This document shows positions 1 through 64,000 of a stretch of 64,000 nt of DNA, piece by piece (position 1 is the first letter of the stretch; each line of letters begins with the position of its first letter). The position numbers and the translations under genes are program-made. Under the pieces are notes generated by a model. That model saw only the letters and a program-made list of their open reading frames with translations. It did not search any database and was not told where the DNA came from. Source of the stretch: Cenococcum geophilum. Taxonomy: Eukaryota. The stretch lies in NCBI GenBank assembly GCA_050273025.1, contig CP158635.1, forward strand, positions 20,088,001 to 20,152,000, given 5' to 3'.

Positions 1-1700
1 TTATTATCCGGAAGATCCTTATTAAATCTATCCTTCTATAAAAGTAACCCAGGCGTCATTACTATATTATAGCATATAAAGTAGCTGCTTAAGGAGCTGC
101 TAGCTATTTATACTAGTTTTTTCCCAGTAGAAGAACTATCTTCTCTCCATTCAACCATTTTTTACTAAAATACCTCTTCTATTTCTAACACTATTGCACC
201 TTCTATACTATATAGAAATTTAAGTTCTTTAGTTTTATAATTACACTTTATATATTAAATTTGGAGCTCGCCTAGAACAACTTTTAGTTTTTGGTCATTA
301 AAGCCAATAGTATCCCAGTTACGGCGAATAAGAAAATTCATAAGAATTAGGCCACTAACCTTAACCAATTCTTTATATGTCGTAGACTGCGAGGCACTTT
401 TAGGGTTACTCCTTCCCTGCTTTAAAAATTAGGTCCATAGTTTAGCTATTTTATTAACTTCCACGGACGTGCATTTTCTAAAAATGCTAGGGTTAGCTTA
501 AGCGGTTGCCCAATCTATATCTTTAAGGGCGCTTATAATAAATTAGCATATATCTATAACACCATTCTCTATTACTGTGCTAGAGCTTAGGCAAAGAATC
601 TTAGGTATAGAGGTACCCCCATTTTTTTTTAAGAGCGAAGGAATTAGTTAATATAAATTTCTTAATTTTTTTTTATTATAAAACTTATCCTATAAGATTC
701 TGCTAAAGAGCGTAGTTACAACGGTCTATATACCTCTATAGGGGGCCGTTAAAGAACTATAAGCAGGGCGTTTTCTTTTTACCTATAAGAGTCTAACTAT
801 TATTCATTACATCGTAATCTAACTAGTCCCCTAAAGTCCCCATTTAAAGCCATTCCTAAGGGTTTAGTCGCGCCATTTCTTTATACACACCTTCTATCTT
901 ATAGGACATTGCAAACCGTAGTAGCGTCTACTCTTTTATTATAAGCGTAGAGTCCTTAAATAATAAGATATAATTATCTCTCTAGCCAGTAATCACACTT
1001 AGAATTATAATGACTAGATTTACACTATGCTATCTTTATATTATAGATATAGCGTTTTAGTTTATATATAAGTATAAAAAAGGCATCTTGTCCTAGCTAG
1101 GATACTCGGTATCTTTAGCCTAGTTATTCTCCTATAGATACTAATTCGTATTCCCAGCTACTTAATTAGCAGCCACTTCGTCTAGGTTTATAGCAGAGTA
1201 ATAACTAAGGACAATAGTTAAGTACGCGGTTATAATTTTTCCGGTTCCTACACTATTAGCAAAAACCCTACCGTTTAGTTAGTGCGCTCCTAGTAGAATA
1301 TCTTAGATACGCTATACAGCTAGTATGGGAATAATTTAAACCTTAGATTTAGACCCCATTTACTAAAAATGGGGACCAGGTTCTTCGCTAAGACGGCCTT
1401 TTTAGAAACTCTGTATAGCTTAGCCAAACATTTATACATCTATTACTCTATTTATTAAACCTTACCTCCTGCTTTGGCTATAGCGGCCTCTTAAAATCTA
1501 AAAAGAGCTAATATTAGTCTAATTCAAGATATACTCCATATAACTATATGCTTATACCTTTACGCAATAGGCATTATAGCCTATATCTCCTTAGCTTAAG
1601 TTATATTATCCTTAAGCGCATTTTTACCTAAGGTATCTTTAATCGCATTAATTTCTATAGTTTTACTAAGGAAAGCTTTTATGGGTATAAAGTTTAATTA
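1..1700 (-). pseudogene. SNF2/SWI2-family ATPase (helicase-like), RIP-degraded, runs off left edge; 5' start unresolved (may extend to ~3000)
   Basis: Minus-strand translation gives ordered SNF2 motifs: FKLFPY*LYSV (Q motif); GRVFANSVGTGKII at ~1272-1231 (motif I, after a 1-nt frameshift); NLVIIILSVITG*REI (Ia); FSRIL*DKFYNKKN at ~707-666 (II, de-RIP DEFH); KILCLSSSTVIENG (III); FLIRR at ~340-320. Confidence 0.8.
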
Positions 1701-3499
1701 TTATATAGAGTCTAAGCTAATTAGGGATATAAAGTAGTTTTGCTCTTAGGAGTATCGCAATTATTTTTACCGTGCTCTATATCGTTAGGATTATCCATAG
1801 GCTAGATAACTAGATTATTGCGGCTGTTCCTAGCAGCTTGCCGTAGCTTACCACAGTTTGCCGTAGTTTGCCCATAGATACCTCTAGTAGGTTGCTCCCT
1901 TTTATAATTACGTTTCTTCGGACTTAATAAACTTAGAATACCACTATGTGTTAATAAGATGGATAAAGCATTACTCTTATTCTCGCTATCTTTATTAATA
2001 AACTTAATATCTAAGTGCTTGCGGATCGGCTTAGGCATAATCTTCTACCGTTTCTTAAGTGCGGCCTTAATGCGTAAATACTGGTAAATTAAAGTATTAG
2101 CAATTCTAAGAGGGTTTATACCCCACTTATTTAGTAATTAGTACGGTACTTTTATAATTAAATGCTTAACTATAATTATTAGTATATAGCTAGCTAGATG
2201 TTATTAAAGGGACTTACAATCCGTACTCTTAAGTAGAAATTCCACTCTACTCCTATTATATAGCATACACTACTAAAATATAGCTTATAGTGGCCCTCGC
2301 CAGGTAATATAAACCTCCTTATTAGTAACCACGTTAAGCTAGGTAATTTTATCCTTATTTAAAATAAAACCTACTAATACTACAACCTCTTAAAATAGCA
2401 AGAAACTAATTTCTTTAACTATTAGTGTTTCTATATTGCCTTTTAAAATTTATAGACTTTATAAAGCTCTACTATGCTTTAGGTAATTAGGTTTATTCTT
2501 TAAAACTAGAAGGTTATATTTTTAAATAAAAACGGCTTATTTAGTAATATAAAACCATATAATTTAGAGATTGGCTTAAAAGTAAATATACATACCAGCG
2601 TTATTATAGGTTTAAATTAGGTTTAACTCTAACTTTTAGGTTCCGACTTTATATTATTTTACCATTTAATAGCATTGGTTCTCTAAGATAATATAAAAGG
2701 AATAATAGCCTATCTAGACTAGCTATTTAAAGCACGTTCCTTCTTAGGTAAGTTACTAAGAATCTTCTAAATAAACTAATCGCGCGGCACTTTATCTTTG
2801 GCAGTATAAAATATAGATTTTTTAAGCCCAGCCTCTTATATATTATCTAGGATTATATCTCTTAATTTCCTTAAGGCAACAAGTATTAATATCCCATCCC
2901 TTCGTGATATCTTAAGTTCTTTATTATAATATATAAAGATACTAAGATGGAATAAAGAAGGAGTGGAGCGTTACTATATAAAAGTAGAAGAATCTAGTTA
3001 GTATTTGGTAAAGGTATAAGTCTAAAGTAGGTAAGTGAGATAAACCAATTATAAGAGTTAATCTACTAGGCAGATTACCATAGTTTTAAAGAGTAAGTCG
3101 CAGCTTAAAGTAGCAATTAGTGGTTAAACTAATTAATTAACTAATTAATATCGCATAGAGGTGCCGTGCGAGAGTTGGTTAAGGTAGTAGAGGTAAAGAG
3201 TGTAAAGTAAAGTAAATAAGCCTAAGGTAAATGCTCTTGCTAATAGAATATAACGCGTACATTAAAGGGCAATTTACTATAGCAGATTGCCGCTAAATAC
3301 GCTTCCTCTAGTTATAGAAAATATTCTTTATAAATAACCAGCATAATAGGCGGAGTTAAAAGTATATTAAAATATATAACCTAAAAATAAGGGTTAATAC
3401 GCCTAGGACGTTTTGCCTACCTAAAATTAATATTTTAGCTTAATTAAGACCGCTTTAATACACCCCTTTAAGTAAGGCTCCTAGTAAATAATTAAAACT

Positions 3500-4330
3500 C
3501 TAAATAGTATTAGATTTAAAGCTATAAGGACTGCTACTATATACCGCGTATATTCGCAACTACAAAAACAATTATATCCTTAGAGGCTTTAAGCGTTTGT
3601 TATATTATATACTTTAATAGTCCCACATTCCAAACTAGTATAATTATTAGTATATCTGCCTATAACTCCTCCATCTCTAGGTTAACTCTAGCGTCCTAGG
3701 CAATATTAAGAAATTTAGGGAAATCTAGAAGACTCGTCCACCCTTCTACTAAGTTAGTTCGAAGTAGACTAGCACCTAAGTCTATATAAATTATAGACCG
3801 TAGTATATTCTTTAAATCTCGACATATATAGATTATAAAACCCTAAACGTTATATTTATTAACATATTTTAATAAAAGAGATTAATATACGTTCTGAGGC
3901 TCTGCATAAGGGTACCCTATAGCAGAATTTGTAGCTTTATACCGAAGTCCCAATTCAGCACTAGTCTGGCCAGCTTTCTTATACATATTTAACTGCGTGC
4001 AAGTAAGGAAATATTAGGCTACTTCCTTAGTCCACCTAACCAGAGCATTACTGGACTCTAGGATTTAGTTAACGATTTTAGCTATAATCTTACTTTAAAT
4101 AACGTAATTTATTCGGTCTCGGAAGCGTATAAATATTATATTACTCTTATTCACAATATCCTTAACTACCCCTTTAATCTCATATAAATAAGCGCTACTA
4201 ATACTAAACCCGGATATAATCTACTTATCCTTCCTAGGAGTTTTACCGGTAGACTTATACTATACCTCCTCTATAGTATACACACCATTTAATTATATTA
4301 TTGCTATACTAGGTGCGTATAGTGTTAGCA
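3500..4330 (-). pseudogene. Degenerate ORF of unknown function inside the Plavaka element
   Basis: Frame open except for RIP-type stops over the >110 codons read (NGVYTIEEV*YKSTGKTPRKDK*...LVRWTKEVA*YFLTCTQLNMYKK). No recognisable domain; bounds approximate. Confidence 0.45.
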
Positions 4331-4429
4331 AGGGACGCGGGATTAAAGGTTTATAAATGTTTAGTAGTTATAAATTAATTATAATAGGTACTGTAGGATA
4401 TAATACTGCTTTATATATTATTAGCGCTT

Positions 4430-7400
4430 AGGATAATATGCTATTTAGTATATTTAACTTATAATTTAAAAGGAGCAAGCCATTATAGTTAGTTATTAGA
4501 ATAGCTAGCAGATCACCACAGATTACGGCTATTAAATTAGTCATATAATATACTATCCTTTTTAGGCACAAACCCACCTATCTAATCTTAATAATAACGT
4601 AAGGAGCCATATTTATCGCTATTATAATAGGCTTAATAAATCGCTAGTGCCCTAAATATAAGCACACAATTTCTACTATAGGTAGATTGGCGCGACATAG
4701 GCCGTACTACAGGGCTGTGGGCACAGACTCTCTTAACCAACTAGATAATGTCTATCCTACAATTTAGGCTTAAGCGGATACCCGTAAAGACGACGAATTT
4801 ACCATAGAATAATGGGTACACAACCTTATAGCAACTAACACCGCTGTCAATAATACTTTATTAACCATTATAGGAAATACCGGCTTAATATTAGCAGAGG
4901 AGCTAAGCCATATAGCACCAGTAGAATAACCAACTAGTACTAAAACGCATAGTCACGCGGTAATAAGCCTCTCTACCTTAAATATTTATTATACCCAAAC
5001 TTATTATAAAGTAACTAGCCGCGATACAGGAACCCTACTCAGCCACCTAGAGGGGAACTCTAATTAGTAGTCTACCGCAGATCGCAACCACCTACTAAGG
5101 CCTAGCTAGCTAGCGGATAGAATAAATAAAGGCAATAACATATTTTATCCTTTCGTAAGCTCTGTAGAATAGGCGTAAGTTGCCTAGTAGGTACGCAATA
5201 GCATATTAGCAAAGGAAATAAACGCGTAGCTATAAGACCCCCGTATTAAAAATATAAGGGACGGATATATATCATACCAAAATATAAAAAAAGTCAAGAT
5301 AAAACTACATTCTATTTCTAAAGGTGTAAGTAATAAGAGCTAGCAAATCACAGAACTTAATATATACGGCAAAAACCTAAAGATATACCACTGTAATATA
5401 CTTAGCGTAGTAGCCTTCCTAATCGGTTATTTCCCATTTAAAGATAATATAGTTTATTCTCCTATTTATTAATTTAATATAAAGGGTAATAGAGTATATA
5501 ACGAGGCATATACGGCTAACCGTTAATAAAAGATCTAAGATTAATTACCTAATAGTGCGATAGCTATTATGGTAATACCTAGTAGCGACCAAACTAAGCT
5601 AACTACACTATCCGGAGACAAAAAGGCGCATCCGGTTTATATTATAATACTTAATATCCTATTAAAGACTTAACGTACAGCTAGCAGGCCAGTAATGCTT
5701 CTTCTAGGTTATATACCTACGGACTTACCAAGTAACCGGATAAACAAGCTGGATGTATACCATTAAGTAATAAGTATTATATTTAAACGTAAGTATTTAC
5801 CTTAGCAGTATATAGGTACTTAAGTTAATATAAAAGCTAGCCCTTAAACATGCTACTAGGCGCGGCATACCAATGCGATACATAGATAGGTTTATTAGGC
5901 AATGCTACCCTATACTTACTAGGTTTATAGCAGACTATAAAGAGTAGGTTATATTAATAGAAGTAAAATTAGGGTAATACTATATAATATATTATATACC
6001 GCCTTATAAACGAGGTAACCTACTAAGCACTATATCCAGCAAATAGCCGCAATAGACGCATAAATCGACCATTAAGCAACTTAAACAATAGCAAAACTTA
6101 CAGCTAGATTGCAGCGACCCTAAGTATATTAGGCCAATTTAAAATTTTACCTAGTCCCATTATATAGCGGATATACACGCTATAATAGCCCCTAATTTAC
6201 TATACTAGCTATATAAAGGCGTCACAAAGCATTTAATAAGCTGGCTTCGGGCACTACTACTTAATATTAAGAAAGGGAAAGGGAAGGTTCTAATAACTAA
6301 TTAGAGTAGTATAAAAACCCTATTATCTACTAAGAATAGGGTAGAACGTCTTCTAACCACACGATTCGCCAAGGTTAAACCCTTTTAGGGTATAATTAGG
6401 TGGGATAACTTCGCAGAGTTAAGCCAATGGACTAGAAAGATATATAAGTCCCTTCTTTATTAGATTATACCAGTTATAGCACCATTACTATATAGGAACG
6501 AAGGGGCAATACTATTTATTTATACTACAGTTAACTTTACATTATTAGCCGAATATAAATCACACGATAAAGATATAATTAAATATCTTAAAGCTGCATT
6601 ATATTAAATAGATAAGACCAAAAAGGCGTTCTTACCGTACTAACCTAATAATAAAAACCTACCCAATTTTAACATACCTAAACTTTATGCAATTTCCCAC
6701 TATCCGGAGATAATTTGTATATTTAGCGCCCTAATGGGAACTATAATAAAGCACGGCGAAAGGGCACATATTCCTTAGAAGAATTTCTATTAAAGATTAA
6801 ATAAGCGTAAAGGGTATAAGGAGTAAATAATTTATCTTAATACAGAATTAATAAACACTATAGTAATACAAAAGATAGAGCTATGGGAAAATATAAGGCT
6901 AATACCAGCAGCTAATACTATAGAAGATTTATACATTATATTATTATTAGGCATAGTTAAGCTAACAAACAAGCCGTATAGATAGGATTGCTGCTAGTCT
7001 ACTAACTAAATATTTTCAATATGCGGAATAAACCCAAACTTATAGCGCAAAGCCAGCGAAATTCAGACTAGGCTAGGTATTAATGAATTTATTATAAAAC
7101 TAGCTTTATTTATGCGGGAATATTATAAGCAAGTTAATAGTATATAAGTAACGGATTCGGACATTAAGCGCCTTAAAAGGGATGCAGCCTAGGCATAAGA
7201 TTTACCTATTAGTATTCATCACTCTATAACATACCACATTTAACGCAGTAAAGACTCCCGTAATCTCAATCGACCATATAAAGTACGGGCATACTATAAC
7301 CCAGTCTAGATGCGGACTACTGCCCTATAAAGGGACCAAGTTCTTATATAAGAATATAAGAACGCACTAGATAGAATGAAGGGAACATAGGCTGCCTGTC

Positions 7401-7840
7401 TAGAATTGCTAGTATTAGTACAGGACTTAAAGCGTATAGATAAGAATGGTAGATACTAAGTATACTATAGAGCACTTTTTAAGCTATTCCGTCCATGCAA
7501 CGGAGGCAAGGTAGATCCTTTTAATGGGATAATTAAAGTAGAACGATTTCTTACGAATATAGTACAAAATAGACGAAACCTAGACGGCTACTAAATATAC
7601 AACATTTCCTATATCGAGAGACCCATACAATTAATACCAACTTCGCTAGATAAAAGAAGAACGTTCTAAATAAACTCATATACAGATTGGGATATATATA
7701 ATCAATTCTACAATAACAATTTTCTTTAGATTAATAGCATACGCGCAGATAAGTTTATAAAGAAACAAAAATCTAAAACTAAGCTTCTAATTAAATTATA
7801 GGAGGTCTTAAAACGAAAACGAAAACGGCTAACGTAATTA
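4430..7840 (+). pseudogene. Plavaka-family transposase, RIP-degraded, with at least one intron
   Basis: YPFVSSVE*A (~5146); RVYNEAYTAN at 5491; SSDQTKLTTLSGDKKAHPVY at 5581; LLGYIP; intron gtaagt..ctag at ~5789-5840; QCYPILTRFIADYKE*; PNLLY*LYKGVTKHLISW; SQWTRK; FNIPKLYAISHYPE; INSYTDWDIYN near 7680. The 5' bound is approximate. Confidence 0.88.
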
Positions 7841-7999
7841 ATAGGGAATCCGGTATATTTAATCCCTAGGAATCTAGGCAAATTAGCTATAAGATAAGGC
7901 AAGATAAAAAGAAGTTAAAAAAGCCGTTGGTTAGCTTAAAGGTAAAGGCGGCGTGTCCAATATATAGGTAAATTAAGTAGTAAAGGGGCTTATTAGAGT

Positions 8000-8537
8000 A
8001 AGAGGCTGGCTAGCTAAACGTATTTTTACGGATTTTGTATTAGCAGAGTAGTATAATAGCCCCCCCTCTTCTAGCTTTCTCTTCCAATTTGCCGTATGTT
8101 TTTCTTTAACAGGCTTCATTTTTGTAATAATCTCTACCTTTATAGTCTAAGCTTCTTCTATCTATTCGTAATCGAGTATATTAACTCTATTAACACTTAG
8201 GGCTAAATTAATAGCTAATCTTTATAACCGTCGCTTCTTAATATATAGAATAGCCTTATATTGCTCCTCTATAAAGGCTCTTCTTAAGTTTTAAATATAA
8301 AACAACTTTATTAGCTTATCGCCTAAGCTAATACGCTTTAAGGGAGATTCTAAGTAGAAAAAGGCGGAAATAGCGCGATTAAACTAACTCTACGTCTTGG
8401 GTGTATCTATAGGCTAACTAAGTATAAAGGGGAGCTCCAGAGTACGTCTTAATAAAGAAGGAGAATAAGAATAACCGTCAAGCACTTACTACTTAGGTAG
8501 TATTAACCTACTAAACCGCCAGAAAAGGTTAGCCATA
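8000..8537 (-). pseudogene. Short degenerate ORF, basic, unknown function
   Basis: Reads MANLFWRF...PIDTPKT*S*FNRAISAFF...EEQYKAILYIKKRRL with mostly RIP-type stops. Confidence 0.3.
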
Positions 8538-8823
8538 TCCATATAAATTGGTTAAATTCTTACATTTTTTACAGGCAGTTATAACGCTCTTACCCATAAA
8601 GATTAGCTCTAGTGCTTGCTTATTAATAGGAATTCTTAATATTACGGCAATCTGCCGCAATTTGCCCTAAATAGGCTAGTAATAGGCCCAAGCTCCCTAG
8701 TAGAACATTAAAATCTACCCCTTTACTCCTCTATTTCATTAACTACATCTATACTAGCAAATATATAATCTAAAAGTATCATACTTTATCTTTACATCTT
8801 TATTAACTTTTTTAACTTCTCCT

Positions 8824-11250
8824 ATGTTAGTTATGCCGAAGGTTTACTAACCTCTACTATCCTAAATAAATACAACTACAGCTTCCAAAAAGAATAAGGT
8901 ATAGACTACCCTCCATATAACTGCTCGAAATACTAATATATACCTACCACTAAGGTAAAGGCAAAAGAAATAGCAATGCTAGTGCGAGAAGAATCTAGAA
9001 ACGTATACGCGAACGGCAGTCGGGCTAAAGTACTATAAACAGTACATACACGGTAGCATGCAGCTAACTTTAGCAGACGGCTATATATGGCGATAGAGTA
9101 TCCAGGGATAGTATCCTAAAACGTCAGTTAGATATAAATAGCGATTCTAAAGAAGATAGAGGCCTAATGCCCCAGGGAAGAGCGCATCGTCAAAAACTCC
9201 AGCAGAGTTCAGACAAAGAATCTCTAGATCTACACACACAGAATTTAACCATAGTATCTATTACATAGACTCTATTCCTTTACACCCGCTAACGCTTTAA
9301 CAGCGGTCACAAGTCCTAAATCACCCCAATAAGCGGCTCCAATTCCACCGTCCCTCCACTAAAGAGCTTATCTTTAGTGCCAAAGATAACTCTACAGCCG
9401 AGTCGTTTTACACAGCGCCTATACGCAGTAATAAACCGCAGAAGTCTTAATATAGTATAGTTAGAAGATAGCAAGAAATAAGTCGTAGCAGTAAACCCAA
9501 ATTAAAACCTACGGATAAACTAATATCAAAAGCTGCTATACGCTTCTTTCTAATATTTATAATATTAGGCAAGGCTCCTAGTGGTCTTTCTCTTACACTA
9601 TGGCTAGAAGGGAACATAAAGACTCTAGAAAAGACAATAGACTTAGTATAGGATAAAGCAGTGGAGTATAATAGGGTTTCTAAAGGCGACGGTTCTAGCT
9701 AGGCTATGCAAAAACCGTCGCCATTAATGTATCGCATGGTAAGCTACCTCTTATTGCTTCTATATATACTAATATAAAATAGATATATAATAGCATTAGC
9801 CAGTTCCAGTCTTACCTGTTAAAACGCATACAAGATTGCGTAAAAGCTAAGTACTTATTTAGAAAGCTCTCTTAGTAGGAAACAATTACTAAAGTAGAAG
9901 AGCTACTCTATATAGATAACTTTTAATACTCTAAGACAGTACGCATAGCTATACTACCTTAGCACCCTTCTTATTATTTACAGGGCAAGCAATCCCGCTT
10001 TATAGCACCGGTTATTATAGCCAGTCTATCTAAGTTATTCTTTAAAGGAAAGTAGCAATTTAGGTTCGGTATAGATACGCAGCACTTTCTGCGCCTAATT
10101 AGCTCCGGGGCTGTTATACTAATTTATATAATAATCCGCCACATTATTAATAAATGGAAAAGTAGTAGTTTTACCCAACAAAAGTTTAAAGCAGGTGCCA
10201 ATCTTAACAGTAATTTATTCTTTCTCTACCCTTATTCTAACTACCTAGGCTACGCTATAACTAACTCTAATATTAGCCACATAGGAACGGATAAAGGCTA
10301 TATAGGCAGATTAGTCAACAGAGCGCCAGAACCAGATTTTAGGGCTTCTATAACAGGGCATCTTAAAAAGACTTTAAGTAACTATACACAACGACCCTAC
10401 TGCATAAGTAATTCCAAATCTATTTAAATATAGTCTTAATAATCTTTCTAACCTAGACTCTAATTATAACGCAGGATTCAATAAGCAGCGCTTTAATATA
10501 CTTCTACCGGTATACGACTACTTATAATAACAGTTCTGGACTAATACTTATATCTAGGTACTTAACGCGTCCCTTTCCTTAAACTTAGATACCTCCCGCC
10601 TTTCCGGCACTGTTACTCAGCCTAATACATCCTATAACATGTCGCCTAATTAGACCAACCACAGTACTAATTACTAAGGCGGTAGGCCTAACGATATTAG
10701 CAACCCTAATAGCGGTATAGATAGCGGGATTAATATAAATAAGTGTTGTAACGAATATAGTGGAGTTAATATAGATAAAGATGGCGATGCGGATAATAGA
10801 ACGGATATAGCTCTAGGTAGAAATATAGATGATTAGAATGGTGCAAGAAAGGGGGGTAATAAATATAATAGAGTGGACATAGGCAATAATACTAGCGTAA
10901 ATAGTGGAGAAGATATAGATAAGGATAGTGGCGCCAGCAATAATTTTAGAAATAATACCTATAAGCTTGTCTTTAAAGGTATAAAATTGCGGAATCGGAA
11001 ACGTACCATTAATATACCATATCACTAGAATTACGAACAGTTAATGGTTACAGTTAAGCCATTTAGAAAGATGCTTAGGGCTAAACCTAATACAAGTCTT
11101 TGGTATACTATTAGAAAGGGGGTTAAGTCTATACTATTTAATAATAAGGATCTAGATATCTTTAGAACAAGGGTAAAGAAGGGGCTAGGCAAGGCAAATG
11201 CTTTATAGTCTATAATAGGTTTAGAGGAGTAGCTATTTTATATAGTGATT
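8824..11250 (+). pseudogene. DUF6532-like protein with Ser/Pro-rich N-part and acidic C-tail, RIP-degraded, probably spliced
   Basis: ~9990-10205 reads RFIAPVIIASLSKLFFKGK..FRFGIDTQHFLRLISSGAVILIYIIIRHIINKWKSSSFTQQKF, resembling from memory the DUF6532 pattern (F.HP.I..FF...G...F..I...IAL...I..W.TG). Acidic relic at 10750-10980. Confidence 0.45.
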
Positions 11251-11332
11251 ATAATATAAATATATTTTTAAAGGCATATTATAGCAATCTATGGCAATCT
11301 ATAGCAGTATATTATAATTTAGAGAAATATAT

Positions 11333-11608
11333 ATAATTTATACAGTTCGTACAGTTTATACAGTTCGTATAGTTTATATAGTTTATACAATTCGTATAGT
11401 TCGTACAGTTTATATAATTCGTACAGTTTATACAGTTTATACAATTCGTACAGTTCGTACAGTTTGTACAGTTCGTACAGTTTATACAGTTTATACAATT
11501 CGTACAGTTCGTACAGTTTATACAATTCATACAGTTCGTACAGTTTATACAATTCGTATAGTTCGTACAGTTTATACAATTCGTATAGTTCGTACAGTTT
11601 ATACAGTT
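11333..11608. repeat. 9-bp minisatellite (ACAGTTCGT/ACAGTTTAT/ACAATTCGT), about 30 units
   Basis: Directly visible; it generates the spurious CIN/CTN and YEL/YKL ORFs. Confidence 0.95.
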
Positions 11609-11665
11609 TGCGCGCTATTTATTTATAGGGTAGCAAAATGCTAGCATTAGTTTGGAAGTTAAGCG

Positions 11666-11795
11666 TTTTGCCGCAATTTGCCGCAATTTGCTATCGGATG
11701 CTGCAATTTTATTGCGAAACGCGCAAATCGCTAACGACCATATACGACCACCGCGATCGTACAGTTTGCCGCAATTTGCCGCAATTTGCCGCAAA
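11666..11795. repeat. Subterminal 10-bp repeats TTTGCCGCAA in two clusters
   Basis: ttttgccgcaatttgccgcaatttgc at ~11666 and tttgccgcaatttgccgcaatttgccgcaa at ~11765. Confidence 0.9.
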
Positions 11796-11857
11796 CCGCA
11801 ACAACCAGCCCCAAAAAAAATTTCCTAATATAACTATACGCAGATAGGTAATAAGTA

Positions 11858-13851
11858 AGTTTAGGAAGTAGAAGAGGCAACTATAAGACAACTTATAAGA
11901 GGCTCGATTAAATATATACCTATCCTTTAATCTTTAGACGTCGCCGAACTACTACGCTATTATCGCGATTATTGCCTACTATATTAATAAAAACGGCCTC
12001 TAGCAGACAAAAGTTCTTACTTTATAGTGCCTTAAGGGCGAATATAGTGGCGCTAATTAAGCTTAAATTATCCTGGATATAATTGGCGAATATAAGATTA
12101 ATAAAAGGGTTAGATATTTTATGCTTAATAACGCGTTAAGTAATAATACGGCCATTAATTTAATTCTTAAGACGCTTTATCTAAAGATATTAGAAAAGCA
12201 ACGAAAGCGTTATTAGCTATGGTGTCTTAGCTATATAGTTAACTTAGCTACATAGGCGTTCTTACTAGGTAAAAAGGTAGATACTATACTAGAGGAATTA
12301 GAGCTAGCTTATAGTAGGCATAACTTTAACTTAATCGCAAAGATCTAGAGGAAGTAGGGCGCTCTTAAACGCCTATATAATATTATATAGTATATTTAGA
12401 TGTCGCTATAACGTTATAAGGAGTTTTGGAGGATTATAGTAGGGAGGGAGTAGTTAGAATTTAATATACTTAAGGTAAGTATTAAAGCTATTTAGTGATA
12501 TTTGCTACCTACTAATACTGGATTTTATATTATCCGGCGTATAGTTATAATATTACGATCGTAATATTTAATTTCTTATTACTACTAACTAATTAAGTAG
12601 CTTATTTAAAGTAACGCGACTTAATAGAATTTATATTTTAGCTTTATTATACGAGCTATTAATTATAGGCAACGAATTATACGGTTCTGCGACTCCTATA
12701 TACCTAAATAAGGCGAAGGCATTAAAACTAATTGTCTTACTACGCACTACTAGTTCCTTCTTAAAAAGCTTTTCTTTGTCCTCTAGCCGTTCTATAAAGC
12801 TACTATATATAGCTAAGGCTATAAGCATATACTTTACCACTGGTTTACTATAATAGATTGGCTTTTTAACTGCACCTATAACGCCTAGGTTGATTTTTAA
12901 GAACTCCATATTAAATATAGTAATAGTAAGGAATATACCTATTTAGAAGCCATAGCCTACGCCTTATAGGAGAAGTGCAAGGAGTACTATAAACGCGCAG
13001 ATAATAGTGCCGCTTACTACGCTGCGCATATACTTATACTAAGCAAGAAATAGTTATAGTTTTAATAGGAATTTAATTAAGATAAGAATGAGAAAACCTG
13101 GCTTTATGGTAATCCTAAAGATCTAACTAATTGTGGTATTAAAGGCTTAGTAGAGGACCTTTAGCTAGAGGAGTATAAGGGTAGGTATAGTACTCCCGTT
13201 GCTATTAAGCAGCCACTATAACTAATACGCTTTATACGCGGCGAGATATTTAATAGGCTTTTAAATCACAAATAGATTAAAGCTATACCTCTTACTAGAA
13301 CTAACGCCTATTTAACCTATATCTAAACCGACTAAAAAGCTGCTAACGATTCTCTGGCTTACTAGAATAGTAAGTATTATTTATAACTAGACCTCGCTTA
13401 ATTTACTCTTAATATACTAGCTATACCGTTAATAAGCACTAAATATAAACGCGTGTTTAGCTCCGCTAAGCACCTCTTTACTAACCCCTAAAACTGCCTT
13501 AAAGCCGATATTATTAAAGCTAATAAGTGCCTAAAGTTCTAGTTCGGGCGCCCTTAAGTAAAGGCTTTTAAAAAAGGCGTTAATTCTAATATTAATAAGC
13601 AGTATAAGGAGAAAGAGGCTGCTAAAGCTGCCGCTAAGGCTGCCGCTAAATTAGAAACTAACACAGTAGGTAATGCGGTAGGCGACTTAACGGGTAATAT
13701 AATGGGCGATGCGATGGGTAATACGGAGGTAAATTAATAAGAAGCTAGCGGGCTGGAGCATAAGAAGGAAGATTAGGAGGATAATAAGGAAAATAAAAAT
13801 AACTCTAATAATAAGGACGATAAGATTAAATACACCGTAATTAATAACTAG
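11858..13851 (+). pseudogene. hAT transposase, RIP-degraded
   Basis: ARLNIYLSFNL*TSPN (IHLSFDLWTSPN); GEYSGAN*A; FMLNNALSNN; L*CLSYIVNL (RC.GH..NL); intron ~12475-12600 before SNAT**N (ATRWNS); dimerisation domain LAIPLISTKYKRVFSSAK at ~13420-13470. Confidence 0.9.
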
Positions 13852-14339: not shown

Positions 14340-15651
14340 TTACACCAATGCCGTGACACTCCTCCAACCCCTCCGCATAGCCCTCTTCGTAGCAGCAGAA
14401 AGATCACCAGAAACACCACCCACAAATCCAGAGTTTGCCCATGCCTGGCTCGCGTCCCACATCATGACGCCACCAAAGCTCGAGAATTGAGTGCAGTAGC
14501 TGATAACACTGTTTAAGGTGTTGGCTGATACGTATCCAGCACCAGCACCGGTATTAGCGGGAACCCCTAAGAGGACTTTGACATTGGTGTTTTTGGAAAC
14601 AGTCTTGGCCCAGTTATCCCAGGTGTCAAAATTGAAATTATTCTGAGTAGAGGAGCCCGCAACGTAGGATGAGACACCACAATAATTATTATAGAACTGG
14701 ACGAATATGGCATCGAAGGATACAGCCCCGTTCAGCATGTCGTTGTCTGCGTAGTCTGGGTAAGGGCACTGCGGCGCAGCAGTGAGCAGGTACATTTTCC
14801 CCGAGGAAGCCGTAGCAGCATCCATAAGTGATCTTAACTGGTTTGCAAAGGGAACCATGTTAGATACCCCGGCTTCAAAGTCAAAGTCGAAACCGTCGAC
14901 AGATGAGGAACCGAAGGGGCGGAAGGCATTGGAATCGGACTGCTGCGGACCAAATGTGGCCCAGATCAAGTCGGCAGCGGCAATAGCGGCACTGGACGAC
15001 GTAAATCCTCCTTCACTATAAGTGGCACCACCTACGGAGAGAAGTACCGTTTTGGAATAGGTGTTTTGGCAGGTGGCTATATCCTCTCTGATGGAACAAT
15101 ATCAATCAGTACTTCCAGCGAATGCCGACGTGACGTTACATGGAGCTTACGCGATATTCGGACAGTCTAGGAGCGCCGTACCATTAAACGTGGAGCAACC
15201 ATTGCCTTGGTTGGCGAAATTGATCTCTGGTTGCCCACCCACGCCATTGATGACAGTCAAAAAGGCGAGAGGGATTACCTGGTTTGGTTATACATACTGT
15301 TAACTGTGGTGGAGGTGAGAAATATCTAGAAGAAACCTTACGTCTATGTCTGTGTCTACGCAAAAGAGCATTTATTATACTGTCTGACCATACCAGTAAC
15401 CAAGAGGAACTCACTAGCACAGTAATAAGACAACCTTTGCTGCGCAAGATCTCCTGACCCTTGCCCATACGAATTTTGGCCTGTCAATGATACCAGCCTC
15501 AGTCGAGCCTACAGAGATGTAATTTCCATTAACTTAACGTACCCCAGTAAATCGCAATATTGCTTTTAGTGTTTGCGTCAAAGCCAGCGATGACACCATT
15601 GATGGATGCCATAAGAAATGACCATGATATTACCTGATGTGCGGAACGCAT
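14340..15651 (-). CDS. Class III (subgroup B, Cts1-like) GH18 endochitinase, secreted; 5 exons: 15651-15543, 15480-15415, 15355-15342, 15278-15151, 15087-14340
   Basis: Signal-like N-terminus, IAIYWGQNS, KTVLLSVGGAT, catalytic DGFDFDFE, AAPQCPYPD, VQFYNNYCG, GGVMMWDAS. All introns are GT-AG and preserve frame. Confidence 0.95.
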
Positions 15652-17769: not shown

Positions 17770-20700
17770 TCAGTGCACGACACCAGGTGCAGCGCGCTTG
17801 TTCCATGCGTTGTTCTGCTGTGGATTCGTCCTAGCATTGTTATTGTTCCATCCGGATCCGGTTCCACTTGTAGATGGCCGAGGCGTGGCGTTTTGAGACG
17901 GTCCCGCTTGGGCTTGGTAGTTGCTCGATGGCTTCCTCGATCGGGGGTTGGGAGAGTTAATGTTTCCCTCTCGAGGGTTGAAGCTGCGCTTCTTGCTATT
18001 GCTGTTGTTGTATGGTGTCGTTTTGCGAGCACGCGGCTTGGGCATGGTCTTCGTAATTGTCTCTTTTGCACCTGGAAGACGTATGTTGACTTCACCATCG
18101 ACGGGAGTCATGGGAAATGGCGTCGCGCTGATGGCTTCAACGAGTCGCTGAAACTTTGAGTTTGGACGGCTAGATGGAGATGGAACCGACAGCTCATTCG
18201 CCGCGAGATGTGGTTTTTTTGGCAAGTTAATCGTGGGCAATGATCCAAACTCACGATCTTCGAGGAGAGCCTCCTCAGCTGTAACCTTAGACACAACATC
18301 ATCACTGTCATCAATGCTAAAGTTTGCAAAAGCTCTCTTCGTTGGAGTGATTGGTAGTGAAACTGTAGCCGAGCTGCGTTGGGTAGTCACATCCAAAGGC
18401 GCCTTAGATGCTGACGTAACAGCTAGCGAAAGCGGTGCTGGCGGCGATGCTGCGGAATGGGCATTTTGAGATTGAGGTTGCTGTTGCTGTTGCGGCTGTG
18501 TTGTTCTGCCAAAAAGGCCGTTGAATCTTGCCTGCCAGTCTTTTTGAGTAACAAGAGGCTGCGAGCCGATGCGAATAAATGGCTCAGGCCGAACAGGCAT
18601 AATGACAGGCGCTGGCGGAGATGGCGGAACTGGAGGAAGCTTGACACGAGCTTTCGGCACCGGCAAATTCACTACCGGATGGTTCGCATCTCCATCGAAG
18701 ACAGGATGCGAATAAGTTTCAGGCGGCGGAGGTGAATCTGACTGTTGTGACGTCGTCGAAGCCTGTGAAGAGGAAGCTTCGGGAGCGCGTGGAAAGAATC
18801 GAGACGAGCGACCACCCTGGGGGTGGGGAACATTGAGATTCGCAGTCGCACCAACCGGTTGTTGAGGCGCAAGATTGTCTCCATGGATCGCCGGCTGTGA
18901 AGAATGAGAGTCTAGCTGAGTCGCTGCCGGTGCCTCTACTTTTGGAAGAGATTCAGCGGAATCAACATGTGACGCAGCTTCGGACGGATGATTCGACTTG
19001 ACTTCTGTGGCATTGCCACCTTGAGCGACGTGAACGACACTGTTAGTCTTGAGAACCTTGCGACGGCTAACACCATCCTCAGCAGGCTTGGTCAGTCTGA
19101 ATGTCTCTTTGATCTGAGGCATGTACGCTGCAGCGCCGCTCTTCTCTAACTCCTCTCTCCATTTGGCTGCGCGCATTGCATCATCGCGTTGGATGGCATT
19201 GCCAAAGTTGCCCCATTCACCTTTTGAGGTAGAGTTCGCAGCTTTCACAGGCGGAGCTATGGGGCCCGGGTCGGGTGCAGTTGCAGCGTTCAGAGTGTTC
19301 TGTGACATTTCACCAAGAGCTGCAGATTGCTGTTGACGCACATCAGCTGATGGCATGAACATTTGCGTGTGGCTGAATGCTGGCGTATGGTTAGGAATAG
19401 CTTGAGTCTGAGCAGGCGAAAGTTTCATCGCAGATGGTGGAGCAATTGGACCAGGTTGGCTTGTGTGTGATTGTTGAGGTTGGTGTGAGGCTGGTCGAGT
19501 AGGGCCTCTGTTGTAGTTTGCGTCAAATGTACCGTTTCCAAGTGCTCGGTCTTTATATTGAGGTGGGCCCCAGACGTTGCCAGTAGGCTGATTGTTGGAA
19601 ATAGAGCTGCTCCAGGCAGGATATGATTCTTGTTGTGGGAGAGAAGGCTTCCATGCTTGTGAGGAGTGGTCGAGTGACTTATATGAAGCACGGACCTCCG
19701 CCTCCGATTGTTGTAATTTTGATTGGTCCAATTGAGGTGGCTGGTCCACAATATGTGAATGGTTCTCAATAAGCGGGCTCGGTTTCGGCTGTACTCCGGC
19801 ACTTGCTGACTTGGTTGGGGAAGAGATCGGCTTAGGCACAACTTCCTGAGTAGCTTTTGCGGGCTTCGGTGACAACTTAGTCTCTGAAAAAGGAATCTCC
19901 GCAAGATTTCCCAGCTTTCTGGCTGGATGAGGTTGATGGACTTTGATCAGCCCATATTGCGCGACTTCCCCCTCCGATGTTGGTACTGGCGGCTTTGGAA
20001 GGGACTGGACTGGAGCTGGAATGGCTTTGTCCTTTTGGGGAGATTTTTCTAGGGGGAGTGGTGATGAGGAATCTTTTGCTTTGTCCTTGTGATCACCACC
20101 CAGACCCATCGCTTCCAACTTCAGCCTAAGGCGTTCCTTTTTAGCAGCTTCCTCCCTTGCCTCTTCTTCTTGCTGGCGTTGTTTCTCAAGTTTTGCACGC
20201 TCCAGTTTCTCACGCATAAGCCGCTTCTGGCGTTCCACAGCATCCTCCATTGGAACTGCCGCTCCTTGAGCTATATCCCCAGCCCCAGACGAACCTACAG
20301 AGCCGTAGGGGGAAGCTGGTTGTACGTAACTAGCATTGGGCGATGACTTCTGTGTCCAAGAGTGATGCTGCTCAGCTGGTGAAATTCCACGCTCAGGGAA
20401 ATGGGTACGATTTTGCTGAAGTCCTGGTCGAGGGGTTTCGGTTGGTGTCGCGATCTCGGAGCTAGCGAGAGACTGCGATCCACGTCGGTGCTGCATGTCA
20501 AGTGGCATAGGTGGTATATCTGGCAGCCGCCCGAAAGACATTCTCCGACCACTACCACCACTAACGTTCGACGAATTGCGCCGTCTACCCCATGAAGGAC
20601 CCTCAGCTGCACTTGAGCGAGAAGTTTGAAAAGCCGCAGACGGTTCTGCAGGCCCGCCTTGTTGTGATGGCCGCTGAAGGACTGACGGTTGCCGGAAGCT

Positions 20701-22321
20701 GTTATCCCGAAAAGATCCGCGACGCATGTCGTTGACAGGCTCATATCGGCCATTGTGTGAATTGAACAATTCTTTGTTTCCACGATCGTCTCGCCAAGAC
20801 CTGTTGAAGTCATCTGGAGCAAATTCCTTAGCAGTAGGTGCTGTTGGCGGTGCATCGAAACCATGGGGATCCCTTTGAGAAAACCGAGTTTGTGGAGATG
20901 GTTGGGTAGGGGGATTTATTTGCACTGGAGACACTTTGTCCACAGGTGGAAGCGGAGCCCATGGAGATTTGATAGGCGCAGGGGCCGAAGGCTTGGCTAC
21001 CAAGGTCGGCTTCTCCATCGCGCCCTTCAATACTAAACCGGTCTTTAATGAGCCTGTCAGAGTATGAATACCAGGCTTAAGGATTGTCTTCGTTCCGCTA
21101 GTAGAGTTTGGTCTCTGCACGCTCGAGGATGATGCCAGTACCGGTTTACCTGTCTCTGAAGGTGTCTCCTTTTCAACGGTAGGTTTGGGTTCATCAGGAA
21201 GTTGTTGGTTTTCTGCTGTGGCGACTGTAGACTTTGTACCATCCATCCATTCCACCGTCTCAGGCGCCCAATCGTCCTCATCGTCATCTATATCCGCCCA
21301 TTTTGCTTCCTTTCCAGACTCGTCTGCCTGTAACCGCGTCGCCAGGTGAATTCCATATTGTTGTTTGAGTTCTTCATCCGTGAACTGCTTTGGCGGAGGC
21401 GGTGGAATGGCTATCACAGGAAGATTAGCACAAGCGCTAGAATAAAGTGGTTTATTTTTGTCAAAGGAATGCTCACGTTGATTCTTATTCCAAACCTTGC
21501 TTGCATCAGGACCAGAGCCAGCCCCATTAAGTTTTGATAATGAAGAGCGAGGAACGGTTCCTAGTCCACTCCCTGATTTAGCCACAAGTCGGGGTTTGGC
21601 TGTTGGCTGCGCAAAAATGTTCGTTTGCCCGGAGGGAGACGCTATACATACAAGAGGCAGTTAGCAAAAGGAATAGTTTAATTTATGGAGTTCATTACCT
21701 TTATCTCCTGGCCGCACAGAGGGAGTCGACACTGCGGATTTGGCCAGGAAATTTTTTGTTACCGACACGGCTTTGAAAGACGCCGGTTTCTTGACCGAAT
21801 TCGATCGTATATGTCGCCCTGGTCTTTCCTTTGCCTGGTCTACACTTCCAGGTCTACTAATATCTGTATCTGAGCCACCACTAATCTCCGCAAGTGCTGC
21901 TTGCCCAACCACATCCTCTGCAGCGGAACGCTCTCCAGTGTCGCCGTTGGCAAGCGGCTCCTCAAGAATCTTCGGTCGTGATGCGTTATCTCGCAGTTCT
22001 TCAGCATCTGTAATTGCAGACTGTCCACGGTCAGTTTCCTGATAGTAGGTGAGTATCTTTGCAACCACTCACAGTCAAGGCATCGTTCGCCTTGTTAGTA
22101 GATGAGGGTGTAACGCCAATTTCAGGTTCGCTCGTGCTCGAATTGTTTAGGGACGAACTTAAAAGAACTTTTGAGGGTTTTAGAATGGCGGTCATAGATT
22201 CCGATAGCGCCTCGCCGTCGCCGGCGGAGTTGTTGGTAGTTGTCGCAGTAGCGTCGATGGGAGAAGCGTCACCCATCGACTGTGCTTCCTTTACCACATC
22301 TTGGATGATCTGCTCTGCCAT
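17770..22321 (-). CDS. Large conserved low-complexity (Pro/Ser/Gln-rich, coiled-coil) protein; exons 22321-22073, 22038-21699, 21641-21477, 21410-17770
   Basis: 1271-codon ORF plus upstream ORFs joined in frame by GT-AG introns. Ordered blocks FKAVSVTKNFLAK, KPRLVAK, VWNKNQPIPPPPPKQFTDEELKQQYGIHLATRL, WADIDDDEDDWAPE, ELFNSHNGRYEPV, and an E/K/R coiled coil. Confidence 0.88.
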
Positions 22322-27335: not shown

Positions 27336-27606
27336 TGTATAATTATAGCACCTATTATACTAACCGCGTGCTTACGCGTTTGGTATACCAGGTACGCGTT
27401 TACGCGTTTAGTGTACTAACTACTCGCTTACGCGTCTAGTGCACTTATAAAGCACTAACTAATTAGGGGGGAGGTGTATTAGTATATAGACTACGTAGTC
27501 TGCTTTATATAATCGACAGTTACTATTATCTAAAAGAGTATACGATACTATACGTATTTCGTGCCCCTAGATTTAACTCACTTATGCTATTAAATTAGTA
27601 CGAATA
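27336..27606 (+). repeat. Copia 5' LTR
   Basis: tgtataattatagcacc...ttagtacgaata, direct repeat of 41905-42175. Confidence 0.95.
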
Positions 27607-62800: not shown

Positions 62801-64000
62801 CCCTTTTAGACTAACTAATAGACTAGCTATATACTAGCGGTATATAAATAATATACTCTTTAACTACCTTAACTATACGACCTATTTAGATAATATTATA
62901 ATCTACTTTAAAAACGAGCTAGAATATAAGGAGTACGTTTATAAAGTCCTATAACAGCTCTATAAGGCTACTCTAGGTTAATATTAAGAAGTTAGAGTTT
63001 AGTATTAAGCGTATAAAGTACCTAGGTTTTATTATTAGTATAAACGGAATTAAAGCCAACCTAGAGAAAATAGCCGTAATTAACTAGTAGGCACCCCCAC
63101 GGACTATAAAGGGGGTATAATTATTTTTAGGTTTTTATAACTTCTATTAACGCTTTATTAAGAACTATAGTAGGATCGCCTGGCCTCTTAACTATCTTAC
63201 TAGAAAAGACTAGCCCTTTTACTTTAACGCTATATATAGGCAGGCCTTTAATAAGCTTAAAAACGGCTAGTATCGGCTCCCCTACTTGCCTATTTTAACC
63301 TAAAACAGCCCTTAATGCTAGAAACTAATACCTTAAATAGCATAATAGCTAATATTTTTTCCTAAAAGCAACTAGATAGAGAATGGCACCCTATTATATA
63401 CTATTTAAAGACTATAATAGATGCCAAGCTAAACTACTTATAAGAGTATATATATTAGATCCCGCCGCGCTTGTGAATAAGTTCGCAAGCACTCTATATC
63501 TTTTTGGCCGTATAGCGACGTAGAGGCGGGATACGTTACACTACCACATCTATAATAAAGAAATGCTAGCTATTATCTCTAGCTTTTAGCACTAGCATAT
63601 ATAGCTAGAGGGGACCCCCAAGCTAATTAAGGTAGTTTTAGATTATAAGGCCCTAGAATACTTTATAATAACTAAGGCCCTTATAGCCCGGCAGGCACGC
63701 TAGGCGGATATTCTATCTTAGTTTAACTTTTTAATTATATATAGACTAGGCGCTATAAACTACGCAAACGCTCTTATAAGGCGCGAATAAGACCTAAATA
63801 ACTAGATGGCTATAAAGATGTTATTACGGACCTAGGCGCTACTATAACTAGAACACCTTAACTCCTAAATATAGGCAGAACTAAGCACGGACTCCTTAGG
63901 CGCCAAAATATATCCTATTAACTCCTCTAAACTTAACCTTATTAATAAACTACTATAGGCCAACTAAATGACCCCCTCTTTATAAGAGTACCGTAAAAAG
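59838..64000 (+). mobile_element. Second Ty3/Gypsy copy related to 51018-57005, more degraded, runs off right edge
   Basis: 5' LTR tgttacggcgctag...gtcactaata (59838-60080) similar to the rc of the other LTR. Gag, protease, RT and RNase H are collinear with copy 1, with small deletions. Confidence 0.93.
63439..63540. mobile_element. Short solo-LTR-like insert (102 bp) in RNase H of gypsy copy 2
   Basis: Absent from copy 1; ends t(a)taag...ttaca (TG..CA after RIP); flanked by ctact/ctacc; internal IR atcccgcc/ggcgggat. Confidence 0.7.

What the first reader, a model, noticed from the sequence alone, without database searches (positions are those of the whole stretch)
1..11857. Large multi-gene Plavaka element carrying its own SNF2 ATPase
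Seen: a Plavaka transposase relic, a divergently oriented SNF2-family ATPase with motifs Q/I/Ia/II/III, a DUF6532-like gene and two or more unknown ORFs, all similarly RIP-ed, ending in subterminal arrays at a sharp junction. Known: Plavaka transposases were described mainly from basidiomycetes alongside the KDZ transposases, some linked to TET/JBP genes, and RIP targets repeated DNA. Inference: this is a multicopy >12 kb ascomycete transposon that brings a chromatin/DNA translocase as a fixed module, possibly for anti-silencing or target access. I do not know of this architecture being formally described.
Basis: partly seen in the sequence, partly recalled or inferred. Interest (0 to 1): 0.8.

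Follow-up and report, generated by a model that had tools for sequence, protein, structure and literature searches.

The report
Giant dead Plavaka transposon carrying SNF2
This stretch is the right half of a mutation-killed, 24-kb fungal cut-and-paste transposon that carries its own SNF2-type DNA motor gene in two copies (one full, one already broken), a passenger gene shared with a distantly related transposon family and not yet formally described for this group.

Summary
Real, and larger than reported. Window 1-11830 is the right half of a 24,176-bp PlavakaB transposon: CATCAGG...CCTGATG ends, 2-bp target duplication (12 of 13 copies), inserted into a hAT whose empty site exists elsewhere. 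At least 33 copies link the SNF2 region to the right end. Correction: the SNF2 in the window (SNF2-B) was already a pseudogene before RIP. It lacks motif VI and is frameshifted even in an un-RIPed metagenome copy whose transposase and DUF6532 frames are open. A paralogue upstream of the window (SNF2-A) keeps one frame and all motifs. A second family in this genome (transposase about 35% identical) keeps the same SNF2(-)/Plavaka(+)/DUF6532(+) layout, so the linkage is old. The SNF2 belongs to a divergent fungal lineage nearest Rad5 by sequence but without RING or HIRAN. The left end is a borrowed MITE. Function is untested; an accessory translocase acting on the element's chromatin is my best guess (about 40%). 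Giant Plavakas with other chromatin-type cargo are published, and a 26-kb Parastagonospora repeat with tandem SNF2-like helicases was described as an endogenous cluster. This scan noted the same family before, on other DNA of this genome and in other genomes.

The parts
1..11830 (.). Right half of a 24,176-bp PlavakaB element (G000:C1:20075655-20099830). Upstream of the window (window coordinates, 0 = base before position 1): left end and a 235-bp MITE with both terminal repeats at -12345..-12111; 5' fragment of a Helitron (DUF6570) at about -12100..-9159; 75-bp array at about -9100..-8745; SNF2-A (-) at about -4400..-8180; ORFc (-) at about -3000..-3900; 75-bp array at about -1600..-1280; 3' end of SNF2-B at about -560..0
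1..2920 (-). SNF2-B, a pseudogene duplicate of a Rad5-like SNF2 ATPase. Q-like motif about 1315-1335, motif I 1235-1262, motif II about 678-700, motif III about 565-590. A 158-bp deletion at about 739 and a 125-bp deletion at about -470 (removes motif VI), plus small frameshifts. Homology to SNF2-A runs to about 3210
3537..4310 (-). ORFd, unknown protein; open (296-aa frame) in un-RIPed L060; 25-27% homologues beside Plavaka in family-2 metagenome loci L066 and L080
4633..7837 (+). Plavaka transposase (PF18759): N-terminal C2HC/C2H2-like finger, intron at about 5788-5840, D...D...E with C(2)C and H(3)H motifs; open in L060 and in metagenome protein P0004
7859..8542 (-). ORFe, unknown protein; open (230-aa frame) in L060; no Pfam hit; not detected in family 2
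9300..11232 (+). DUF6532 gene, probably spliced: upstream exon about 9300-9740, DUF6532 domain 9783-10433, acidic/Gly-rich frame 10558-11232; exon joins not established
11330..11608 (.). Tandem array of a 9-bp unit (TACAGTTCG), about 30 copies
11667..11794 (+). Subterminal TTTGCCGCAA repeats (11667-11691, 11765-11794); related motif at the left end; probable transposase-binding sites (inferred)
11810..11830 (-). Right terminal inverted repeat (RIP-ed form of ...AAAATTTCCTGATG)
11831..11832 (+). 2-bp target site duplication TA (other copy at L002:7653-7654)
11833..13540 (+). 3' half of the hAT relic into which the element inserted (not part of the element); 5' half at L002 up to 7654
   Evidence: (Dimer_Tnp_hAT E 0.0099, below cut-off)

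Best explanation
SHOWN: a RIP-killed copy of a 21-25 kb PlavakaB (CMC/EnSpm-like) cut-and-paste transposon. Its DDE transposase acts on CATCAGG...CCTGATG ends and leaves 2-bp duplications. Inside the ends it carries two tandem SNF2 units, ORFc, ORFd, ORFe and a DUF6532 gene. SNF2-B (in the window) died before the family spread; SNF2-A (upstream) kept its frame and motifs. A second family keeps one full-length SNF2 in the same place and orientation. INFERRED (likely): the SNF2 is a long-standing accessory gene of this Plavaka lineage, kept under selection, rather than a recent capture. The element grew by adopting its own MITEs as new left ends, picking up a Helitron fragment on the way. INFERRED (about 40%): SNF2-A is an ATP-driven dsDNA translocase, made by active copies, that clears nucleosomes or bound silencing proteins from the element's repeat-rich ends or target sites, so that transposase can work in heterochromatin; it would act in trans on the many non-autonomous derivatives.
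For: Ends and TSD: 12 of 13 copies with both ends; empty hAT site L057 and restored hAT frame. Linkage: 33 of 38 SNF2-B loci and 33 of 37 right-end loci are paired; 25 of 35 family-2 SNF2 loci have a divergent Plavaka within 50 kb, against about 0.01 per locus by chance. Family 2: ends CGTCAGG...CCTGACG, TSD matched in 4 of 6, about 19.7 kb, same gene order. Un-RIPed L060 is 93.7% identical to the in-script consensus, with open transposase, ORFd, ORFe and DUF6532 frames. SNF2-A matches the homologue profile over positions 198-942 of 972 in one frame (344 bits) and by hhalign at 100%, E 4e-52. Nine of 12 A/B indels shift the frame, yet A stays in frame (0.5^9 = 0.002 if either copy could be hit, my calculation). 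ATPase A/B differences are enriched at third positions (transversions 50/42/62, p=0.043; transitions 91/77/153). No intact host gene of this lineage among 48 of 59 candidates scored. Intact SNF2 P0029 and intact Plavaka P0006 each come from a single JGI contig of 18,350 bp (same contig suggested, not shown).
Against: No un-RIPed SNF2-A was obtained: L060 starts downstream of it, and the consensus keeps 10 stops in the scored span. Within-family divergence (under 1.4% transversions) gave no sign of selection on SNF2-A ATPase (12/12/9) or on the transposase. The N-terminal region shows no third-position excess. The family spread while carrying a dead SNF2-B and a Helitron scrap, so it tolerates useless cargo. 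381 exact terminal-motif matches, many 0.25-3 kb apart, show that derivatives move without SNF2 in cis. Ten of 35 family-2 SNF2 loci had no scored Plavaka nearby. No functional data exist.
Confidence: 0.85

Rival explanations
1. The SNF2 genes are passengers: once captured between the ends, they were copied along with no benefit to the element.
For: Dead SNF2-B and a truncated Helitron are carried in many copies; MITE end-swapping gives an easy route for capture; no selection signal within the family.
Against: Same position and orientation in a second family with about 35% transposase identity; SNF2-A escaped all 9 frameshifting indels and the ATPase part shows third-position excess; no host source gene found.
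Confidence: 0.25
2. SNF2-A works like Rad5: it reverses forks or drives template switching at the excision gap, so the donor site is refilled from a sister copy and copy number rises.
For: The family profile's best PDB sequence match is Rad5 (E 3.5e-34, next 2.7e-26); X3X3R8 pairs Rad5-like helicases with a Rad6-like gene (PMC3017866); family 2 also carries an SF1/UPF1-like helicase relic (weak AAA_12, E 0.025).
Against: No RING or HIRAN in 17 homologues scanned; the predicted fold does not favour Rad5 over Mot1, Chd1, Ino80 or CSB; no ubiquitin-conjugating gene recognised in this element.
Confidence: 0.2
3. The SNF2 proteins are decoys or competitors of host silencing remodellers such as SAD-6/ATRX, blunting repeat recognition; truncated SNF2-B could be such a decoy.
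For: SAD-6, a SNF2-family remodeller, is needed for de novo silencing of repeat arrays in Neurospora (PMC11295056, abstract); Plavakas elsewhere carry anti-methylation or chromatin enzymes (PMC12730594; bioRxiv 10.1101/2025.02.11.637652).
Against: SNF2-B is broken from its N-terminal part onward; the lineage is not ATRX-like (ATRX ranks 58th of 60 shown); every genomic copy examined was RIP-ed.
Confidence: 0.12
4. Not one element: separate SNF2-bearing and Plavaka repeats that happen to nest, or an amplified host gene cluster as X3X3R8 was read.
For: The region is full of nested repeats; 5 of 38 SNF2-B loci lacked a scored right end.
Against: Shared ends, TSDs and colinearity across copies; no internal terminal motif between the SNF2 and the transposase; contiguous un-RIPed L060.
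Confidence: 0.02

Closest known systems
PlavakaB DNA transposons of Agaricomycotina (Kojima 2025, PMC12730594; parts 1-3 of 7 of the text read; supplement searched)
   Same: PF18759 transposase with C(2)C and H(3-4)H motifs, 5'-CATCA..TGATG-3' ends, 2-bp TSD, accessory gene inside the ends
   Different: Cargo there is TET/JBP; 'SNF2' is absent from the text and from the one supplementary file held. This element is 21-25 kb, RIP-ed, with SNF2, DUF6532 and unknown ORFs and no TET/JBP detected
Giant Plavakas of red algae (Bostrychia; bioRxiv 10.1101/2025.02.11.637652; passages read; supplements not seen)
   Same: 17-19 kb Plavakas with a fixed three-gene accessory cassette and internal repeat arrays, proposed to modify their own chromatin
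   Different: Cassette is PAG1, methylase-SET and ParB-2OG oxygenase; no SNF2 and no DUF6532
X3X3R8 repeat of Parastagonospora nodorum (Hane & Oliver 2010, PMC3017866; passages, part of section 6 and a supplement search)
   Same: 26-kb RIP-ed repeat with a full and an incomplete, 10-20% diverged tandem unit bearing Rad5/SNF2-like helicases, then a third block with other genes
   Different: Read as an endogenous gene cluster with a Rad6-like gene; no transposase, ends or TSD reported in what I read; I could not test its sequence, so kinship is a lead only
Inton and Enton transposons with a SNF2 helicase (one sentence in PMC3627910; primary report not seen)
   Same: Precedent for a SNF2 helicase as a non-transposase protein of a transposon
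   Different: Different elements; no link to Plavaka or fungi stated in the passage
Rad5/Rad16-like SNF2 ATPases (K. lactis Rad5, PDB 6l8n)
   Same: Best sequence match of the family profile; two-lobe SNF2 fold
   Different: No RING or HIRAN; instead a conserved His/Cys insert (HLP...CPS...CxC) in lobe 1; 11-15% identity to all solved SNF2s

Membership tests
PlavakaB (Kojima 2025) | Plavaka transposase domain (PF18759) | tested here: met
   Window E 2e-21 and 6e-16; L060 E 2e-36 and 1e-30
PlavakaB (Kojima 2025) | DDE triad with C(2)C and H(3-4)H between second D and E | tested here: met
   SSDQT, ADYEEQ, CTMC, HAISH, TEHGE in that order in L060; assignment of the triad residues by recalled motif comparison
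PlavakaB (Kojima 2025) | 5'-CATCA..TGATG-3' termini | tested here: met
   All 13 copies with both ends show it or its RIP-ed forms; family 2 has the variant CGTCA..TGACG
PlavakaB (Kojima 2025) | 2- or 3-bp TSD | tested here: met
   2-bp match in 12 of 13 (9 TA, 2 AA, 1 TT; C7a mismatched); empty site
PlavakaB (Kojima 2025) | Placement in the PlavakaB clade of a transposase tree | not tested
TET+ Plavaka | TET/JBP dioxygenase gene | tested here: inconclusive
   No Pfam hit in the frames scanned; the divergent PE type could be missed, and ORFc/ORFd/ORFe stay unassigned
SNF2 family ATPase (SNF2-A) | Helicase motifs I-VI in one frame | tested here: met
   In-script consensus shows Q, I (DGMGTGKT), II (WDEFH), III (SGTPMEN), V, VI (QFIYRIYRIGQ); Helicase_C E 2.5e-4, below cut-off; homologues carry PF00176 and PF00271
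SNF2 family ATPase (SNF2-B, window copy) | Intact frame with motif VI | tested here: not met
   125-bp deletion in 17 of 17 B rows; broken in un-RIPed L060
Rad5/Rad16 subfamily | RING finger inserted in the ATPase; HIRAN (Rad5) | tested here: not met
   No such Pfam hit in 17 homologues; none seen by eye in SNF2-A
SNF2 family ATPase | DNA-stimulated ATPase or translocase activity | not testable with these tools
   Needs biochemistry on an intact homologue

The most novel reading that the evidence does not exclude
Ascomycete PlavakaB elements form an old lineage of giant transposons with their own transposon-specific SNF2 subfamily (lobe-1 Cys/His insert, no RING), kept under selection as a remodeller or translocase that aids transposition or counters repeat silencing. 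The multicopy 'helicase gene clusters' of Dothideomycete genomes, such as X3X3R8 and the Bipolaris copies, would be unrecognised members.
Probability: 0.4. Interest if true: 0.75.

Novelty: new variant of a known kind. Interest (0 to 1): 0.55.

Why it matters
Transposons that bring their own chromatin enzymes (TET, SET, VANDAL factors) are a small, closely watched class. An ATP-dependent SNF2 motor kept by two distant Plavaka families would add a new type of accessory function in fungi that use RIP. A near-progenitor, un-RIPed copy and intact homologues exist in public data, so the question can be tested. It may also reclassify multicopy 'helicase clusters' in Dothideomycete genomes as transposons. 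The MITE-as-new-end pattern offers a concrete route by which such elements grow past 20 kb.

Tried and rejected
Reading the ends as CAGG...CCTG with an AT duplication (my first reading): rejected; with CATCAGG...CCTGATG the flanks match and the hAT frame is restored. Pfam on RIP-ed SNF2 frames: no SNF2-rel_dom hit. Selection test within family 1: uninformative. Search for longer Plavaka homologues: none, weak evidence. Profile word search with intact SNF2 homologues: recovered only P0029 of the family, the other 19 hits were distant SNF2s. Sequencing runs: no RNA holder listed; not evidence on expression. Contigs of 4 DNA runs covered the SNF2-A stretch in 30 of 30 bins, but no piece spanned it, so an intact SNF2-A was neither shown nor excluded. 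Fold search of homologue P0034 confirmed a SNF2 fold without picking a subfamily. Atlas searches for ORFd (best 0.78) and ORFe (best 0.91, unnamed cluster) gave no function. Family-2 middle region: no Pfam hit, one weak AAA_12 in 1 of 6 frames. PMC6431247, PMC11152077 and PMC13547354 passages were not relevant. No complex prediction was run.
Full report
Observation. The window is G000:C1:20088001-20152000 of a 178-Mb, 7-contig fungal assembly. Positions 1-12 kb are AT-rich with a RIP signature. Reading stops as X, Pfam finds Plavaka (PF18759) on the + strand in two frames and DUF6532 (PF20149) downstream; 4 of the 18 frames scanned had hits, and the SNF2 region had none. A profile of 20 intact homologues does hit the window's - strand SNF2 relic, in two frames. 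The tandem arrays are as described.

Boundaries. Comparing the 30 kb upstream and four other loci showed shared sequence from -12345 to +11830. I then fetched 13 more copies, chosen because they looked uninterrupted or had a full left end, so these 17 are not a random sample. All 17 are colinear with the window copy over the stretch fetched, with nested insertions at different places. Thirteen copies including the window's had both ends. All show CATCAGG...CCTGATG or RIP-ed forms, and 12 of 13 have a matching 2-bp duplication. The window copy is 24,176 bp with TSD TA. It interrupts a hAT: the left and right flanks join in frame, and a 92% identical hAT elsewhere has the empty site with one TA. 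These ends and TSD are those given for PlavakaB in PMC12730594. No terminal motif lies between 1.7 and 4.4 kb.

Copy number and linkage. Searches score only the best 40 candidates (of 87 and 224), so counts are lower bounds. Of 38 SNF2-B loci, 33 have the element's right end downstream; of 37 right-end loci, 33 have SNF2-B upstream. The terminal motif has 381 exact matches and the reversed control 0; many listed pairs are 0.25-3 kb apart, which indicates non-autonomous derivatives.

Two SNF2 units. Upstream of the window lies a roughly 75% identical paralogue of the segment -1598..3215. In an in-script de-RIP consensus, SNF2-A runs in one frame with motifs Q, I, Ia, II, III, IV, then after an intron V and VI (motif names recalled). 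SNF2-B, the gene in the window, lacks 125 bp covering motif VI in 17 of 17 rows. Group-wise (over 80% of 17 B rows against 16 A rows; two copies with insertions were dropped), A and B differ by 12 indels, 9 of them frameshifting, including a 158-bp loss in lobe 1. The region lost is coding in homologues. A stays in frame, with 10 stops left in the scored span. A metagenome contig, L060 (1 of 28 loci), is an un-RIPed copy of -1460..11230: GC 45%, 93.7% identical to the consensus, and 94% of its differences from the window are RIP-type. In it ORFd, both transposase exons, ORFe and the DUF6532 frames are open, while SNF2-B is in pieces. So SNF2-B died before RIP. L060 does not reach SNF2-A, and read-laying did not settle whether an intact SNF2-A exists.

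Selection. A/B differences in the ATPase part favour third positions (transversions 50/42/62, p=0.043; transitions 91/77/153, which de-RIP may bias); the N-terminal part does not. Within family 1, divergence is under 1.4% transversions and no gene, the transposase included, shows a clear signal; of 14 regions tested only ORFd reached p<0.05.

What the SNF2 is. A profile of nine X-read SNF2-A copies found 59 proteins at E<=0.001, mostly short fragments, plus 17 longer ones. Of those 17, 14 carry SNF2-rel_dom and/or Helicase_C at E<=0.001, often below cut-off, and none RING or HIRAN. Named ones are from Lindgomyces, Bipolaris (several accessions), Kalmusia, Plenodomus, Stemphylium and Pleomassaria. 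The family shares a His/Cys insert in lobe 1. Its best PDB sequence match is Rad5; the model of P0034 (pLDDT 75) matches many SNF2 ATPases about equally at 11-15% identity. In G000, 44 of the 46 matches to P0034 carry internal stops; the two without are weak (E 1e-5, 1e-3) and partial, so I found no intact host source gene.

Second family. Intact SNF2 P0029 and intact Plavaka P0006 both come from single 18,350-bp JGI contigs, suggestive of one contig. In G000 they reveal family 2: 25 of 35 SNF2 loci have a divergent Plavaka within 50 kb. Six fetched copies are about 19.7 kb, end in CGTCAGG...CCTGACG, have TSDs matching in 4 of 6, and carry one full-length SNF2 (-) at the left end and Plavaka (+) at 32-34% identity to family 1; DUF6532 was detected weakly in 2 of 6. 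A middle gene looks like an SF1/UPF1 helicase (weak). Metagenome loci of that type show ORFd (2 loci), SNF2 N-terminus (2) and DUF6532 (L064, and intact in L061).

Left end. Of 15 copies with a left end in hand, 6 are long (24-25 kb without insertions) and 9 short (about 21 kb). Both begin with a MITE carrying both terminal repeats (235 bp and about 160 bp). The extra 3 kb in the long form is a Helitron 5' fragment (DUF6570); 33 of 40 scored loci are free copies of that Helitron, and their matches stop at or before -9159, exactly at the A|T of the short form's inner repeat. My inference: a Helitron inserted there, and a second MITE inside it became the new left end. The 75-bp arrays behind each SNF2 may be older subterminal regions.

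Mechanism. Transposition by the DDE transposase is standard for the family. For the SNF2 I favour an accessory translocase that opens the element's ends or targets (about 40%), over passenger (25%), Rad5-like gap refilling (20%) and decoy against host silencing (12%). None is tested.

Literature. Ten library searches found no paper describing SNF2 in a Plavaka; only one paper held both words, in unrelated passages. The library lacks most subscription journals, Repbase Reports and, as far as these searches show, Iyer et al. 2014, which I did not read; bioRxiv supplements were not seen. Precedents: TET+ PlavakaB (PMC12730594), giant red-algal Plavakas, Tuber Plavakas with CATAC ends (PMC12581995, passage), SNF2 in Inton/Enton (one sentence), and X3X3R8. 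Earlier notes of this scan describe the same two families on other DNA of this genome (23 notes fit) and similar elements in other genomes; they are leads, not support.

Verdict. A real, well-bounded element and a new variant of a known kind. The specific gene flagged is a dead duplicate, but the SNF2-Plavaka association it points to is old and probably selected. Interest 0.55.

Noticed in passing
L002:7655-7889 and left ends of short copies (e.g. L106:128-290): Both length variants use a complete MITE of the same family as their left end; a Helitron 5' fragment sits between MITE and body in the long form. Suggests growth by end replacement.
   Followed up: partly
L088-L105 (e.g. G000:C3:2898016-2919595): Second Plavaka family, about 19.7 kb, ends CGTCAGG...CCTGACG, one full-length SNF2, and a zinc-knuckle plus SF1/UPF1-like helicase relic in the middle.
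   Followed up: partly
G000 genome-wide: 381 exact terminal-motif matches; many pairs about 2-3 kb or 250 bp apart, with less RIP at the ends than the large copies: an abundant non-autonomous family.
   Followed up: no
L060:1-12940: Un-RIPed, near-progenitor copy in a metagenome with an open transposase, so the family may still be active in some strains.
   Followed up: partly
L003:900-1255 and 8404-8721: 75-bp tandem arrays downstream of each SNF2 copy, with motifs resembling the subterminal TTTGCCGCAA repeat; open in both directions as Cys/Trp-rich frames in the consensus, probably non-coding.
   Followed up: partly
window 14340-14858 (-) and 17770-21246 (-): RIP-free island (14-26 kb) with a GH18 chitinase exon (PF00704, E 1e-8) and a 1158-aa low-complexity ORF without a Pfam hit.
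   Followed up: partly
window 52850-56941 and 59919-64000: Two inverted copies (74-89%) of a long repeat, about 3 kb apart at their inner ends; also a 276-bp direct repeat at 27336 and 41905 and a 245-bp one at 51002 and 56763.
   Followed up: no
C7a copy (G000:C7:16322090-16346264): Flanks AG and CT do not match as a TSD although the copy is full length and in the window copy's young subfamily; possibly a recombinant of two copies.
   Followed up: no
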